Numbered from the stretch's first letter, positions 35,187-41,100 are shown. The stretch: DNA of 64,000 nucleotides from Flaccisagitta enflata (GCA_965153355.1 OZ231126.1:9052001-9116000), one strand, 5' to 3'. Notes: generated by a model not told the origin, from the letters alone. Numbers and translations are program-made.

Positions 35187-38100
35187 ATGGAGGCTTTAAT
35201 TCCGGTGATCAACAAGTTGCAAGAAGTGTTCGGCACTGTGGGCTCTGACATCATCCACTTGCCGCAAATCGTCGTCGTCGGCGCCCAAAGTTGCGGCAAA
35301 TCCTCTGTTTTGGAAAACATCGTCGGAAAAGACTTCCTTCCCCGGGGATCCGGCATCGTCACTAGGAGACCGCTCATACTACAGGTGGTGAGGGGGGTTT
35401 TGAGATGGAAAAGGCATTGTGCAAAGTAGTAATGGCCTTATTGATCCAGTGGAAAAAAATGTTACAATAACAGGATGTGCAAAAAATTTGGTAAAAACAT
35501 AAAAGCACAAAAACCACACTTCTTGATGGCCCAGTAATTAGTTTTACTAGACGTTAGAATGTGCCGTTTTTTATAAGAATAATCTTGGTTGGCAAAGGAA
35601 TGAATTATACTCTGGTTAAACTTTCCCATTTCACAGAATTTTTACCAGTAACCTGGAAGTTTTTCTTCAAATCATTCTCCTGTCTAAACGGTTTGAGCTA
35701 CAGATGCCAGATTAGTCTCAAATGAAAGATATTTTAATTTTCTTTCATTTGAGTCCAATCTGGCATCTGTAGCTCAAACCGTTTCGACAGGAGAATGATT
35801 TGAAAAAAAAATTCCAGGTTACTGGTAAAAATTCTGTAAAATGGGAAAGTTTGACCAGAGTAATATACATTCCTTTGCCAACCAAGGTTTTTCTTATGAA
35901 AAACGGCACATTCTAACATCTAGTAGAACTAATTAGGAGGCTATACCCCAAATTTCGTATTACTGGGCCATCAAGAAGTGTGGTTTTTGTGCTTTTATGT
36001 TTTTACCAAATTTTTTGCACATCCTGTTACATGTAAATGTACAATACATGACATACATGATATACTTGTTTCGTGTTTCGATTAATTTATAAATGTTGAC
36101 TTGATACCTTCTTGTCTTTGCAGTTACTGTACGTGAAAGAGGACGAAAAAAGTCGGCTGTCTGAGGAAGGTGAGCTGGTCAGTGGAGCCAATGCCAAAAA
36201 TGGAAAAATCAACGGTAGGAAAACCGAGCTTCAATCTCGACTAACCATATTGCTCGCCCTCCGTTCAGCTCTTAACCCTTCGTGTCTCTTTCTCGCTCTC
36301 GTGCATTTACCTTTCCCGTTGATCCATTTTGTGCATTTTGTCACAGATTTCCTATAAATTTTCCCATTTTTCCTTTGGTCAAAGTGACAATTGATTTCCA
36401 TATATTTATGCTCTTACCCATGTCAATTTTCCCTCTGTACAGTGGACAGTGTCCTCTTAGCCTCTATCACTCTAATATTCCGTCGTATTCCTTCTTGAGT
36501 CCCCTGTATGTTTTCCACCAATTCTATTTTTTCAGTTGCCCACTTTCTAAACGACCATTTTCTAATTGAACTTTCTTGGCTTTCAGTTTCACTTTCTCTC
36601 TGCACTACTTAGTTCGTAAATTTTGATAAAATTTAGGGAAATACGTTGGAAGTTGAGCTCAGTTGATCCTTGCGATGTGCAAGACTTCCCAAATGATTAC
36701 TCCTCTTTCGCCTTTTCCAGGAATTCCGTCGCACGTGACTTCGTGGGGTAAATTTCTGCACACGAAAAACCGCGTGTTTACCGATTTTGAGGAAATTCGA
36801 GCCGAAATCGAAGCCGAGACTACCAGAGAAACCGGCGATAATAAGGTGAGGGGAAGGGATGGGGGGTGGCGAAGCATAGATGGAACATTTTGACGCGATC
36901 GTTTGGTTAACTGACTGACTGATTTATCACACAACTGGCGATATCTTATTCATTTCTTTACTCACCTGGCTTTCCTTCATTCTCCTCTCTGCTCTCAGGG
37001 CATATCAGCCGAGCCGATTCATTTGAAGATTTATTCCGACTCCGTGGTGAATTTAACTTTGGTAGATTTACCGGGCATGACCAAAGTCCCTGTGGGCGAC
37101 CAACCGGAGGATATCGAGGTACGATCGTCCCCGCCGGCCACCTAACGCTTCATTTCTTGTCTCTGATGAGCATCTGTCGATAGGAGATGTATGCATGTAT
37201 TGCAACGTTCCATTTGTATGCCTTTCTCGACTTTATTTCCCTTTCCCTTTTCTTTTTGACCTCCCCGTCGACAGAAACAAATTCGGGACTTGATCTACAA
37301 TTATATTTCCAATCCGAATTCGATCATTTTGGCCATCACTTCGGCCAATACCGACATGGCCACGAGCGAAGCCATCAAGCTGGCTAGAGACGTTGATCCG
37401 GACGGAAGAAGAACGCTCGCCGTTATTACCAAACTCGATCTCATGGATGCCGGTGAGTGAGATCAAACTCATTCTTTAGTCAATCACCGGTGGTTGTGAG
37501 ACGAAGATGACGGGATGAAAGATAGTTCTTGACCCTTGAGTGTCGGCAATAGCCCACTGGTCAGACTAAGACCAACATGCGCAGCAAAAGTGTTAGACGC
37601 AAATATTTCACTTACTATCTGAGTTTTGAGCGCATAATTTCTTCTTTAAGATTATCTTTGCGCTGATGGTTTACGTGGAAGGGCAGGATTTCCCGGTACC
37701 GGTATATAACATGATCAAAAATTGATATCGAACCCAGCTTGGACCTGATCAAATCTATAGCTGATCTTGACAATCTACAAAATTTACCTGTCCTGAAACC
37801 TGTAACTCTGACAAATAAGATGCACTGCAATATGCAAATGAGCCCCATAATGCGACTCGGCGTATCGAAGAGACTTTTGTGTAAGGAGTCGTTATTGCGT
37901 TTGTTCCTTCTGAAGTAACGATGCGTTGGAAATAAGTCCATATAGACTCCGGGCTTTAACCTGATATAATAGTCTGGTCTGTATTGTATTGTAATTCAAA
38001 TCAGATGAGGGGATGAAGAATTTCAATGCAGATACGGAGTTGAAGAAATTTAATCAAAAGTATCCTTCTCCGTGTCCCTCTTCTCCCGCGTTATTGTAAG

Positions 38101-41100
38101 CCGATTTGGCTGAGAGCATGAAGACGATGGAGAAGAGGCAGAGGACGATTCCGAACATGGAGAAGCCGACCGTGGCCGCTTTGTAATTGTCCCAAATCCA
38201 TTGACGACCTTCCATGTCCTGCTCCTGATATATAAGTACAAAACAAAGGCTGGATACATGGTCGAGCTGGCGGGTGGGCAGGGGCGGTATGGGGAAGGGT
38301 GAGGAGGCTGTGGCTGTGGCTGGGCTGGACCAGTAAATCTAAAAAATCACTGTCTCAGTCAATTTTGCTTCATCTAAACCTTCCTTAGGACAGACGGACA
38401 CACCCTCTTCTAGAATCTGATGTGGTGATGTTTTATTGCTTACTGTAAGTGTATCGGCTCCGACAAAGGAGACCGGATACACAGATGACAAGAAGCCACT
38501 TACATGCATCTGTGAAAAGACCGTTTGTTACTCTGTTCATGCTTGTATTCTTTGTTCGTATATTTACTTGTTGGTAGTTTTCTTTTTTCGTGCGTCCAAG
38601 TTTTCTGTTTAGTTTGTCTGTTTCTTTAGTCGCGTGCTACGCGACTCTACACCCCACTTTGTCGGTTGGTCGATCAGTCTTCTTTTTACCTTTGGAAGCG
38701 CCTCTGGAAGCGCCTTTGGAAGCGCCTTTGGAAGCGCCTTTGGAAGCGTCTTTGGAAGCGTCTTTGGAAGCGCTTTCGGAAACAAAAAGACCGTATCGAA
38801 AATCTGCTTTTGCGCGCCAACTGAAACAAAAGAGAAATAGATTTTGTAGTGTTTGTTAATTGTCTATTCGTCCGTCTAACCGTCTTGCTGGGTATCTGCC
38901 TGACTTCAATCTCTATTATCTCGATCCGAGTGTCCAATCGATACCGCTTTTAATCTAGTCTCGATCTAGTCTATCATTCCGCCTGTTAATCTAGCAGCTA
39001 TATGTATGTCAGTGTCTTTGTTTTCATCTATCCTGTACGGCTGACTAATTTTTTCTCCTCACTGTTGGATGCGTGACGGAATTTGACGCCCATGTGATAA
39101 GGTAAATCATCTCCAGCTCCACTCGTAATCATCAGCGACGGAATTCCCTTCTTGGCGATGAAACCCGAGGACATAATTAACCAATGCTAAGAGAGAGAAA
39201 GAGACCAAAGTACACGAATAATGCCGGAGACAAATCAAAATAATAAGTAGCAGAAGCAAAATGCGCTTACTTGGTCAATATTCTTCGGTTTGTACTCTTT
39301 CATCTTCACTGCAATATTTGATTCATCATCGCCAGTCTGTGAATGCGTCATTTTATCAATTTATAAGATACAGTTGTACCCCGCTCTAACGGACCCGCCA
39401 CCAACGGAATTCCGCCTATAACAGATGCAAATTCATGGTCCCTTCATGTTAAATTCTTTTATTTTCTTTGTTAGCAATTACAGAAGTCTGCCTATAACAG
39501 AAAAAAATTGTCAGTCCCATGAAATCCGTTAGAGCGGGGTTCAACTGTATAAGTAATAAGTAGATCACACAGACAGTTGAATCGTGTGGCCCGTGTACGG
39601 TGCGCCCGATTGAGTTGTCAAGACTGTCGATCTTTAGTCGCGTGCTAAGCTACGAGACTCTACACCCCGCTATGTCGGTCCGTCGGTCGGTTGGTCGGCC
39701 CCTACTGGGCAGCGGCCCCAAAGGGCCGATGTCCTGTAGGACACAGGGGTGAATTTCCATATGCATGTCCGTCCGTACGTCCCCCCCCAAAGCTTCTGAA
39801 GGCTCAAATACCCATTGAATAACATGGAAACTTGACAAAATGCAATCTTCCCATTAAATAACATGGAAATTTGATAAAGTGCAAACTTTCCAATTTCCAT
39901 TGAATAACATGGGAAATTGATAAAAGATGGAAGAAATGTAAAATTCCAATTGAATAACATAGAAACTTGATAAAATGCTAACTTCCCATTGAATAACATG
40001 GAAACTTGATAAAATGCTAACTTCCCATTGACTAACATGGGAAATTGATAAAAGATAGAACTGTTAAATTCCCATTGAATAACATGGCAAATTGACGAGA
40101 AATTGAAAAGAAAATGCAAAACTCACATTGAATATCATGGAAAAAAGCACCTAAGCCTAAGGCTTCATACATAGTTCTACACATGACTGTATCATTGCCC
40201 CTGTCAACTAGGCCAGCCCATGATCTGGCGAAAATATTACTCAACCACCGTTTGTTCAGTTCTTGTTTTGGTTGTTGCTGTTTTTAGTATCGTTCTTCTC
40301 GTCATTTTGTTGTTTTTATTTATTTTTCTTTTGTGGTTATTCTTAGTTGTTGCGACACTGTTGATGGTAAGATGACTACCATCATACCAGCGTTATGGCG
40401 CGTCCAGTTTCCTCATTGACGATGGCGGAATCTTTATAACGCCATTTTTGTCTCTTATCGCCTGGATGACTTCGGCTTGCCACAAGATGGCCTTCATAAT
40501 CCTGAACACAAGGCGAGACTTGCGCAAACACAACTTGATCTGGCAACTAAATTACTAATGATTATCAATATCGCTTCTAACTGGCAACTACTGATGAAGC
40601 CTCTGTCCACGAACTGGCAACAGCGATCACTTCCTAAAGACTGACACACCAACACACCAACACACCAACTCACTTCAAGATCGTGGCCCGAGATTTTGCA
40701 TCGTAATTGAAAAGGATAATTTTTCAAGATCCAATCAAAGTTTACTAGCATGTCGCGATTCTGTGAAACAAATGGTGAGTGATTTCTTTTAATTGCATCT
40801 AAATTCCCACCATCCTCACATTCGGTTCATGGAACAAAAAGCTCAACAACGTCTTAGTCTTACATGAGACTGATCCCGATGAAACCTCAGTTGGCTGTGA
40901 AACCAAAACGAGAGCAGGGCGATCGCGCGAGGCCAGGCCAGGCCGCGCCGTGGCAATATTACCGAAGCACATCAAATTTGTTTTGGACATTCCACTTTCA
41001 AAGTATCACTCAATTCTAGCTCAAACGGGTTTCAGGGGACCGACAAATTCTATCTGTTACAATACAGATACATTACACTTGCGTGCTTCGCATAGCAAAA

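What the first reader, a model, noticed from the sequence alone, without database searches (positions are those of the whole stretch)
38054..40990. Hidden antisense multi-exon gene (ricin-B-like lectin fold, possible C-terminal TM) nested in DNM1L intron 5
Seen: short minus-strand exons with good splice sites (AAT|gtgagg, tttcacag|AAT...GAA|gtgagt, ttcag|GAT...CTG|gtatga, ttcacag|ACT...CAA|gtaagc, ctcttag|CAT...A|gtgagg) join in frame across four phase-0 introns. The product has QKW and QHW motifs ~40 aa apart, each followed by hydrophobic/Gly patterns. A further exon (38509-38444) read in phase 1 gives a third W (NACKW). Exon 38224-38054 encodes a convincing TM tail ([32 protein letters not shown]...GYF*), but in phase 0, so the 3' junctions are unresolved. 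Established: (QxW)3 repeats define ricin-B beta-trefoil domains. The ORF track does not reveal this gene because the exons are short.
Basis: partly seen in the sequence, partly recalled or inferred. Interest (0 to 1): 0.72.

Follow-up and report, generated by a model that had tools for sequence, protein, structure and literature searches.

The report
Hidden membrane-anchored trefoil-like gene inside Drp1 intron
A real, spliced, expressed gene lies backwards inside an intron of the mitochondrial-fission gene DNM1L; it encodes a small protein with a distant ricin-B-like domain, a proline-rich spacer and a membrane anchor that was copied from a vitamin-K-epoxide-reductase-like gene.

Summary
The gene is real. 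Spliced contigs from 3 of 3 marine plankton metatranscriptome runs (2 studies) join eight minus-strand exons through seven GT..AG introns.

Two are wrong: 40990-40820 and 38509-38444. The true exon between the domain and the TM tail is 38820-38690. It holds a 12-nt tandem repeat encoding (K/E)xLP units and resolves the phase problem. The true 5' exons are 42848-42774, whose last three bases are the ATG, and at least 43316-43257.

The product is 231 aa with four parts:
- no signal peptide;
- a ~146-aa domain with QKW, QHW and QIF motifs;
- a KxLP spacer;
- one TM helix 17 aa from the C-terminus.

Ricin_B_lectin is the only Pfam hit and always sub-threshold (best E=4.2e-5). AlphaFold2 failed twice, so the beta-trefoil fold is likely but unproven. 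An exhaustive search of 1.84 billion proteins found only two relatives of the domain.

The TM exon is 77-93% identical to TM1 of VKOR-like proteins, and no other VKOR exon is in the window. I read it as a captured exon copy. Most likely this is a tail-anchored membrane protein with its trefoil-like domain facing the cytosol.

The parts
43257..43316 (-). 5' UTR exon (minimum extent; the true transcription start was not determined)
   Evidence: Joint 42844|43253 (cut +4 = 42848|43257), CT..AC, in X2 and X3 with 60 letters on this side. Donor gtaaat seen.
42774..42848 (-). Exon 2: 5' UTR plus the start codon ATG (42776-42774), the last three bases of the exon
   Evidence: Joints 40760|42774 in X1, X2 and X3 and 42848|43257 in X2 and X3. 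There is an in-frame stop upstream and no earlier in-frame ATG. P0001 starts at the same Met.
40674..40760 (-). Exon 3 (29 codons): N-terminal helix-like segment and start of the first trefoil-like repeat
   Evidence: Joints; tblastn to P0001 gives 93% identity.
40388..40501 (-). Exon 4 (38 codons): first repeat with QKW
   Evidence: Joints. Alone it gives Pfam Ricin_B_lectin E=0.069.
39271..39336 (-). Exon 5 (22 codons): first part of the second repeat, ending in the Q of QHW
   Evidence: Joints 39336|40388 and 39186|39271.
39063..39186 (-). Exon 6 (124 nt, ends in phase 1): rest of the second repeat (HW...) and most of the third
   Evidence: Joints 39186|39271 and 38820|39063. The query that retrieved P0001 and P0002. 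An in-frame 3-nt deletion allele appears in X2 and X3 (table 4).
38690..38820 (-). Exon 7 (131 nt, phase 1 to phase 0): end of the third repeat (QKQIF) and a 12-nt tandem repeat encoding seven (K/E)xLP units.
   Evidence: Joints 38820|39063 and 38223|38689 (cut +1). Tandem repeat of period 12, 7.8 copies. X3 has a joint 12 nt further in, which is one repeat unit fewer.
37957..38224 (-). Exon 8: TM helix (about residues 191-214), 17-aa tail, stop TGA at 38056-38054, and 3' UTR to at least 37957. It is a copy of the TM1 exon of a VKOR-like gene.
   Evidence: Contigs run unbroken over 37957/37977-38223 (table 8). The best 19-aa hydropathy window starts at residue 194 with mean 2.53. Identity to VKOR-like proteins P0003-P0010 is 77-93%. 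P0011 is identical to this ORF.
37272..37454 (+). Host gene DNM1L: the exon before the host intron
   Evidence: phmmer against PDB: Dynamin-1-like protein residues 163-223, E=2e-27.
45414..45572 (+). Host gene DNM1L: the exon after the host intron
   Evidence: phmmer against PDB: Dynamin-1-like protein residues 218-270, E=6.6e-18.

Best explanation
This is a genuine, expressed, eight-exon protein-coding gene on the minus strand, nested in the ~8-kb DNM1L intron. It encodes a 231-aa protein.

**Architecture (shown).** There is no N-terminal signal peptide. A ~146-aa all-beta-looking domain has three ~43-aa segments ending in QKW, QHW and QIF. Seven (K/E)xLP tetrapeptide repeats follow. One hydrophobic helix sits 17 residues from the C-terminus.

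**Origin of the anchor (shown by similarity, direction inferred).** The last exon is a duplicated copy of the exon that encodes TM1 of a VKOR-like (PF07884) membrane protein. It was captured as a terminal exon. The copy has no GT at the point where homology ends, so the frame reads on for 17 codons to a stop.

**How it works (inferred).** The only TM segment lies within about 30 residues of the C-terminus and there is no signal peptide. The protein would therefore be inserted post-translationally as a tail-anchored protein. The VKOR TM1 runs from cytosol to ER lumen, so the ER is the most likely membrane. The trefoil-like domain would be held on the cytosolic face by a short, stiff proline-rich spacer.

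**The domain.** It is most likely a very divergent ricin-type beta-trefoil. It acts as a ligand-binding module anchored to the membrane. Whether the ligand is a sugar is open. It has a single cysteine and only partly keeps the QxW pattern.
For: **Splicing.** Seven joints, all CT..AC on the + strand, appear in contigs of 3 of 3 plankton RNA runs from 2 studies. Introns have zero depth, for example 37200-37763 and 43404-44249.

**Open frame.** The exons sum to 696 nt and give 231 aa, with an in-frame stop upstream of the ATG.

**Independent relatives.**
- P0001 (219 aa) has the same start, repeat and TM, and is identical in 193 of 234 alignment columns.
- P0002 (1849 aa) carries the same domain, E=7.7e-59 and 67% identity, also without a signal peptide and also with a C-terminal TM.

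**In-frame variation only.** I saw a 3-nt deletion and a 12-nt repeat-unit difference.

**Fold.**
- Ricin_B_lectin was the only Pfam family hit by the domain, in 5 of 5 scans of pieces that span the first QxW repeat: E=0.069, 0.0029, 0.0012, 0.0014 and 4.2e-5.
- Against my own HMM of 30 bacterial Ricin_B domains, the three family sequences scored 7.4-10.8 bits. None of 1000 shuffles of each reached that.
- ESM-Atlas nearest named clusters (rows shown) all carry ricin-type trefoil families, score 0.93-0.94 (a lead only).

**No signal peptide.** The maximum 12-aa hydropathy in the first 36 residues is 0.37.

**VKOR origin.**
- The TM exon is 77-93% identical to P0003-P0010 over 46 columns.
- Those proteins match Pfam VKOR from profile position 3-6 onward. 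One of 8 is over the cut-off; the other 7 range from E=1.5e-5 to 0.024.
- tblastn of six VKOR-like proteins (P0003, P0004, P0006-P0008, P0010) found no other VKOR-like exon in the 64-kb window.
Against: **No structural support.** Both AlphaFold2 models are unusable, with mean pLDDT 38.4 and 32.3.

**Weak sequence support for the fold.**
- No Pfam hit reaches the gathering score of 29 bits.
- hhalign against the bacterial Ricin_B alignment gives only P=0.034 over 38 columns.
- A single-repeat HMM is not significant: 41, 72 and 551 of 1000 shuffles reach the real score.
- Pairwise internal-repeat similarity is significant in only 1 of 9 comparisons.
- PDB sequence searches found nothing relevant.

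**Strand.** It is inferred from splice motifs and the ORF, because contigs carry no strand information. The one raw-read run, X7, did not cover the gene.

**Topology and membrane.** These are inferred, not tested. The paralogue P0002 has 53 residues after its TM (my count from the sequence), so it is not a textbook tail anchor.

**Direction of exon transfer.** I infer it from the TM being integral to the four-helix VKOR fold. The parent locus was not seen.
Confidence: 0.62

Rival explanations
1. It is an extracellular or luminal R-type lectin. The TM acts as a stop-transfer or reverse signal-anchor, so the trefoil domain and the KxLP 'stalk' face outside, like a cell-surface lectin receptor.
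For: Proline-rich repeat stalks between a binding domain and a TM are typical of surface receptors. Known membrane-bound R-type domains (mannose receptor, GalNAc-transferases; recalled) are luminal or extracellular. The KxLP repeat lies directly before the TM.
Against: There is no signal peptide in the window protein, P0001 or P0002, and an in-frame stop lies upstream of the ATG. The domain has one cysteine, so it lacks the disulfide pairs of secreted ricin-B domains (sequence). The donor helix, VKOR TM1, runs from cytosol to lumen (established knowledge of VKOR topology, recalled). Moving a folded ~190-aa N-terminal domain across a membrane without a signal peptide is unusual.
Confidence: 0.1
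2. The N-terminal domain is not a ricin-type beta-trefoil but a lineage-specific fold. The QxW motifs and weak Pfam hits are chance or convergence.
For: All profile scores are sub-threshold. AlphaFold2 gave no fold. Internal three-fold similarity is mostly not significant. Exhaustive phmmer over 1.84 billion representatives found no lectin relative.
Against: Ricin_B_lectin is the only Pfam family that the domain hits, and it recurs in every scanned piece that spans the first QxW repeat. None of 3000 composition-matched shuffles reaches the real scores against an independent Ricin_B HMM. The spacing of QKW, QHW and QIF (42 and 47 residues) matches trefoil repeats. The ESM nearest clusters agree.
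Confidence: 0.2
3. It is a transcribed but functionless young chimera: a by-product of a partial duplication of the P0002-like gene landing next to a stray VKOR exon, spliced by chance.
For: It is nested in a transposon-rich intron. The family is tiny. There are three upstream ATGs in the 146-nt known 5' UTR (my reading).
Against: The same chimeric architecture, with an intact frame, is kept in the diverged relative P0001, which is 82% identical (193 of 234 columns). The domain is 67% identical to paralogue P0002 over ~156 aa with no frame break. Variation seen in transcripts is in-frame. Contig depth is 5-12 in three runs.
Confidence: 0.06
4. The TM exon is not a copy. It is the VKOR-like gene's own exon, shared by two transcripts through alternative splicing across a very large locus.
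For: There is 93% identity to the closest VKOR-like protein, P0003. Homology begins exactly at the splice acceptor.
Against: tblastn of six VKOR-like proteins found no other VKOR-like exon on either side within the 64-kb window. There is no GT where homology ends (TAC|AATAAC), so this copy cannot splice onward. The window copy lacks three residues (YWN) that all eight VKOR-like proteins keep. RNA contigs read straight through into the 3' UTR.
Confidence: 0.04

Closest known systems
R-type (ricin-B / CBM13) beta-trefoil lectin domains, Pfam PF00652, including small invertebrate R-type lectins such as the annelid lectin PnL (PMC8399747; search listing and start of abstract only)
   Same: A domain of about 130-150 aa. 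Three ~43-aa segments end in Q-x-aromatic motifs. It is the only Pfam family hit. The invertebrate context matches.
   Different: Scores stay below the family cut-off. Only two true QxW motifs are present. There are no disulfide-forming cysteine pairs and no signal peptide. The domain is fused to a C-terminal membrane anchor, so it should face the cytosol. Sugar binding is untested.
Tail-anchored membrane proteins (single C-terminal TMD, post-translational insertion by GET/TRC40 or EMC; recalled general knowledge)
   Same: No signal peptide, a single TM ending 17 residues from the C-terminus, and a functional domain at the N-terminus.
   Different: No tail-anchored protein with a beta-trefoil cytosolic domain turned up in my literature search. 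Two papers hold both terms and neither is about such a protein, judging from titles and the starts of their abstracts only. Insertion pathway and target membrane are untested.
VKOR family (PF07884), here the VKOR-like proteins P0003-P0010
   Same: The last exon is 77-93% identical to their N-terminal TM1 segment.
   Different: Only that one helix is present. The luminal loop cysteines and the other three helices are absent, so no reductase activity is possible. The exon serves purely as an anchor.
Membrane-bound R-type lectin domains of animals (mannose-receptor cysteine-rich domain; polypeptide GalNAc-transferase lectin domain; recalled)
   Same: A ricin-type trefoil on a single-pass membrane protein.
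   Different: Those domains are luminal or extracellular on type I or type II proteins with signal or signal-anchor sequences. Here the predicted orientation is the opposite.

Membership tests
Ricin_B_lectin (PF00652) / R-type lectin | Profile match at or above the Pfam gathering score (29 bits) | tested here: not met
   18.2 bits (P0001), 19.5 bits (P0002), 19.2 bits (P0001 residues 1-150). The best E-value is 4.2e-5 for the P0002 domain; its bit score was not printed. Exon 4 alone gives 13.8 bits.
Ricin_B_lectin (PF00652) / R-type lectin | Three internal ~40-aa repeats, each with a QxW motif | tested here: inconclusive
   QKW at 48-50, QHW at 90-92, and QIF at 137-139 in place of the third QxW. 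Pairwise repeat alignments are significant in 1 of 9 comparisons. The single-repeat HMM is not significant.
Ricin_B_lectin (PF00652) / R-type lectin | Beta-trefoil three-dimensional fold | tested here: inconclusive
   Two AlphaFold2 runs gave mean pLDDT 38.4 and 32.3, too poor for a fold search. The models show mostly strands in residues 20-146.
Ricin_B_lectin (PF00652) / R-type lectin | Carbohydrate binding through the Asp / aromatic / Asn-Gln site in at least one repeat | not testable with these tools
   By eye, Asp is kept in all three repeats (HDLE, GDDE, GDDL). Arg, Asp or Lys replaces the Asn before QxW. This is an inference from the sequence and recalled ricin site residues.
Ricin_B_lectin (PF00652) / R-type lectin | Secretory-pathway location (signal peptide, disulfide pairs) | tested here: not met
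   No hydrophobic N-terminus. An in-frame stop lies upstream of the ATG. There is a single cysteine in the domain.
Tail-anchored membrane proteins | Single TMD within about 30 residues of the C-terminus and no signal peptide | tested here: met
   The only strongly hydrophobic 19-aa windows start at residues 192-196. The tail after the TM is 17 aa, and the N-terminus is not hydrophobic.
Tail-anchored membrane proteins | Post-translational insertion with the N-terminal domain in the cytosol | not testable with these tools
   Inferred from the architecture and from the orientation of VKOR TM1 (recalled).
VKOR (PF07884) | Four-helix bundle with loop cysteines and a CXXC active site | tested here: not met
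   Only the TM1-like segment is present. Homology stops at SAKSAY. No further VKOR-like exons are in the window. The gene is therefore not a VKOR; it only borrows one exon.

The most novel reading that the evidence does not exclude
There may be a lineage-restricted family of membrane proteins that display a ricin-type beta-trefoil on the cytosolic face of an organelle membrane. If so, this is a cytosol-facing, anchored 'lectin-like' sensor or tether. The short member was built recently by exon shuffling: the domain exons of a giant acidic paralogue were fused through an expanding KxLP repeat to a stolen VKOR TM1 exon. The new gene then settled antisense inside the DNM1L intron.
Probability: 0.3. 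Interest if true: 0.6.

Novelty: new variant of a known kind. Interest (0 to 1): 0.42.

Why it matters
It shows that a reader working from raw sequence can find a real short-exon gene that ORF-based calling misses. The public protein collection holds only the 53-aa last-exon ORF of this locus (P0011).

Biologically it is a clean, datable example of a new gene architecture made by exon capture. A membrane anchor was lifted from an enzyme gene and joined to a binding domain through an unstable coding repeat.

If the domain is a true R-type trefoil facing the cytosol, it would be an unusual topology for this lectin class. That would be worth a localisation and glycan-binding test. It does not bear on a long-standing open question, so the interest is moderate.

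Tried and rejected
**Structure prediction.** AlphaFold2 on P0001 with P0002 as the only extra row gave pLDDT 38.4. The domain-only alignment A2 gave pLDDT 32.3. Both are unusable, so I ran no fold search.

**PDB sequence searches.** Searches with P0001 and with profile A2 returned only chance hits at E of about 1.

**Profile comparisons.** hhalign of the family against 30 bacterial Ricin_B domains gave P=0.034 over 38 columns, which is not convincing. The single-repeat HMM was not significant. Pairwise internal repeats were not significant in 8 of 9 comparisons.

**Related loci.** Two scans of metagenome contigs, with P0001 and with A1, found no locus. I therefore had no DNA of relatives and could not compute dN/dS.

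**Own genome.** It is not held. I could not search for paralogues, the VKOR-like parent locus or synteny.

**Earlier findings.** None for this genome.

**Run X7 (raw reads, 'organism A').** 63 reads lay only partly on repeats and none on the gene, so the run gave no evidence either way.

**DNM1L depth.** The DNM1L exons had zero depth in all runs. The tool warns that conserved, human-like genes are filtered, so this says nothing about relative expression.

**Profile search for more relatives.** Searching with A2 at E<=10 added only P0012, an 85-aa genomic ORF around an exon-5 homologue.

**Rfam.** Over 37000-46000 the only hit was a weak miRNA-family match at the centre of a foldback element, far below its threshold.

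**Literature.**
- 'beta-trefoil' with 'tail-anchored' returned 2 papers, neither relevant by title or start of abstract.
- 'R-type lectin', 'transmembrane', 'no signal peptide' and 'invertebrate' returned nothing describing such a protein among the 12 listed.
- I read only listings, no full texts and no supplements.

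
Full report
**1. The sequence**

Reading the minus strand of 37800-41200 and translating the proposed exons confirmed five of them. These are 40760-40674, 40501-40388, 39336-39271, 39186-39063 and 38224-38054. All five are open, have AG acceptors and GT donors, and the first four join in phase 0. Exon 39186-39063 is 124 nt, so it ends in phase 1.

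**2. RNA evidence**

A word-index search found six RNA runs holding 8-13% of the words of 38000-41000, all marine plankton metatranscriptomes, plus one raw-read run added by study. I laid four runs on 37200-45650.

Contigs of X1, X2 and X3 (2 studies) skip seven intervals. All have CT..AC ends on the + strand, which is GT..AG on the minus strand:
- 38223|38689 (cut +1)
- 38820|39063
- 39186|39271
- 39336|40388
- 40500|40673 (cut +1)
- 40760|42774
- 42844|43253 (cut +4)

Single contigs of 563 nt (X1) and 617 nt (X2) carry five to six of these joints in a row. Intron bins such as 37200-37763, 38328-38609 and 43404-44249 have zero depth. The contigs are therefore spliced RNA, not contaminating DNA.

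The fourth run, X7 (raw reads), laid only 63 partial reads on repeats and gives no evidence. Contigs carry no strand information. The strand follows from the seven splice-site pairs and the open frame.

**3. The corrected gene model**

The eight exons on the minus strand are:

| Exon | Coordinates |
|---|---|
| 1 | >=43316-43257 |
| 2 | 42848-42774 |
| 3 | 40760-40674 |
| 4 | 40501-40388 |
| 5 | 39336-39271 |
| 6 | 39186-39063 |
| 7 | 38820-38690 |
| 8 | 38224 to at least 37957 |

All have standard splice sites.

No contig uses it.
It has no RNA depth.
- **The missing exon.** Exon 38820-38690 is 131 nt.
- **Start codon.** It is the ATG formed by the last three bases of exon 2 (42776-42774). 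The frame upstream has stops and no earlier in-frame ATG.
- **Coding sequence.** It is 696 nt, giving 231 aa.

**4. Independent confirmation from protein databases**

The exon-6 peptide retrieved two environmental proteins.

- **P0001 (219 aa).** It begins at the same Met. It has the same domain, a shorter xLP repeat and the same TM tail. It matches the window protein in 193 of 234 alignment columns.
- **P0002 (1849 aa).** It has a 72-aa charged N-terminal extension, the same domain, a very long acidic repeat region and a different C-terminal TM.

An exhaustive phmmer of P0001 against 1.84 billion representatives found only four proteins at E<=0.001:
- P0001 itself;
- P0002 (7.7e-59, over the domain);
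- P0004 (over the TM exon only);
- P0011, a 53-aa ORF identical to the window's last exon.

None carries a name. The domain family is therefore essentially an orphan at sequence level. The locus appears in the public collection only as its last-exon ORF.

**5. The fold**

Evidence for a ricin-type trefoil:
- Pfam gives Ricin_B_lectin as the only family the domain hits, whenever the scanned piece spans the first QxW repeat. It is always below the 29-bit cut-off. E-values are 0.069 (exon 4 alone), 0.0029 (P0001), 0.0012 (P0002), 0.0014 (P0001 residues 1-150) and 4.2e-5 (P0002 domain).
- I fetched 30 bona fide Ricin_B domains from three actinobacterial genomes and one other bacterial genome and built my own HMM. 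The three family sequences score 7.4-10.8 bits. None of 1000 shuffles of each reaches that.
- ESM-Atlas feature neighbours that carry a Pfam family (rows shown) are all ricin-type trefoil families at 0.93-0.94. By the tool's own controls this is only a lead.

Evidence against, or missing:
- hhalign gave P=0.034.
- A single-repeat HMM is not significant.
- Internal repeats are significant in 1 of 9 pairwise tests.
- PDB sequence searches found nothing.
- AlphaFold2 failed twice for lack of alignment depth, with pLDDT 38.4 and 32.3.

The motif layout is QKW at 48-50, QHW at 90-92 and QIF at 137-139. I put the beta-trefoil assignment at about 0.75. I do not file the protein as a member of PF00652.

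**6. The linker**

Exon 7 contains 7.8 copies of a 12-nt unit, translated as K/E-x-L-P. One run shows a transcript with one unit fewer (joint 38223|38701). P0001 has fewer and more degenerate units. This is a coding minisatellite that changes length in frame.

**7. The anchor is a captured exon**

Searching with P0001 also returned eight proteins of 167-286 aa that match only its last ~50 residues. They match Pfam VKOR starting at profile position 3-6, so the shared segment is VKOR TM1. One of the 8 is over the cut-off, and the other 7 range from E=1.5e-5 to 0.024.

Identity over 46 columns:

| Comparison | Identity |
|---|---|
| Window vs P0001 | 95% |
| Window vs P0003 | 93% |
| Window vs P0004 | 91% |
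| Window vs P0010 | 77% |

- Homology starts at the splice acceptor of exon 8 and stops after SAKSAY.
- The window has no GT at that point, so the frame runs on 17 codons to TGA.
- tblastn with six of the eight VKOR-like proteins (P0003, P0004, P0006-P0008, P0010) found no other VKOR-like exon in the 64-kb window.

I conclude that one exon of a VKOR-like gene was duplicated and recruited as the terminal exon. This happened before the window lineage and the P0001 lineage split. The direction of transfer is inferred. TM1 is an integral part of the four-helix VKOR fold in eight diverged proteins, whereas the paralogue P0002 uses an unrelated TM.

**8. How it most likely works**

- **Shown.** There is no signal peptide: the N-terminal hydropathy maximum is 0.37. 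There is one TM at about residues 191-214, followed by a 17-aa acidic tail.
- **Inferred from established knowledge of tail-anchored proteins and VKOR topology (recalled).** The TM leaves the ribosome only after termination, so insertion is post-translational. The donor helix runs from cytosol to ER lumen. The domain therefore sits on the cytosolic face, most likely of the ER, on a short proline-rich spacer.
- **Ligand.** It is unknown. The single cysteine and the cytosolic setting argue against a classical secreted lectin, though not against a binding module.

**9. Context**

The host gene is DNM1L. Exon 1 matches Dynamin-1-like protein at about 1e-30. The exons flanking the host intron match residues 163-223 and 218-270. 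Dynamin_M and GED exons follow. 'Intron 5' fits my count of coding exons in the ORF list but is not RNA-verified.

**10. Verdict**

I rate the finding as a new variant of a known kind and of moderate interest.

Noticed in passing
window 5425-15632 (-): Long minus-strand ORFs of a BEL/Pao-type LTR retrotransposon. The 844-aa ORF at 8775-11309 has RVT_1, Peptidase_A17, Integrase_H2C2 and rve. Flanking ORFs of 1101, 349 and 781 aa have no Pfam hit. I only describe it.
   Followed up: partly
window 19604-33340 (+): A GLYR1-like gene upstream of DNM1L: a PWWP exon (19604-20248) and a NAD_binding_2 exon (28343-28690). The GLYR1 name is recalled from the domain pair.
   Followed up: partly
window 57081-64000 (+): An alpha-1,6-fucosyltransferase (FUT8_N_cat) gene downstream of DNM1L. 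Its intron from about 59400 to the window end is filled by a ~71-nt tandem satellite, seen as repeating ORFs.
   Followed up: partly
window 43790-45096: A ~1.3-kb foldback element in the same DNM1L intron, with nested inverted arms of 76-107 nt at 93-94% complementarity. Its central hairpin (44200-44322) gives a weak Rfam MIR9563 hit at 36.6 bits against a gathering score of 90. Parts of it have high RNA contig depth.
   Followed up: no
window 38636-38678, 39649-39701 and 45173-45222: A short interspersed repeat followed by a (CCGT/GGTC)-type microsatellite occurs in two introns of the nested gene, and inverted near DNM1L exon 6. These bins have the highest RNA contig depths, 117-1132, so it is probably a multi-copy transcribed element.
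   Followed up: no
window 41079-42201: An element bounded by 122-nt inverted arms (72% complementary), with an inner pair of 30-nt arms at 97%. RNA contigs lie on its arms. It is MITE-like and sits in the 2-kb intron between exons 2 and 3 of the nested gene.
   Followed up: no
proteins P0004-P0010 (not in the window): The VKOR-like proteins that donated the TM exon have a long basic N-terminal extension. Where VKOR has its CXXC motif they appear to have C-P-x-A/G. This rests on reading the sequences against recalled human VKORC1. They may be redox-inactive VKOR relatives.
   Followed up: no
window 39811-40107: A 39-nt-period minisatellite of about 6 copies lies inside the 1051-nt intron between exons 4 and 5 of the nested gene.
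   Followed up: no
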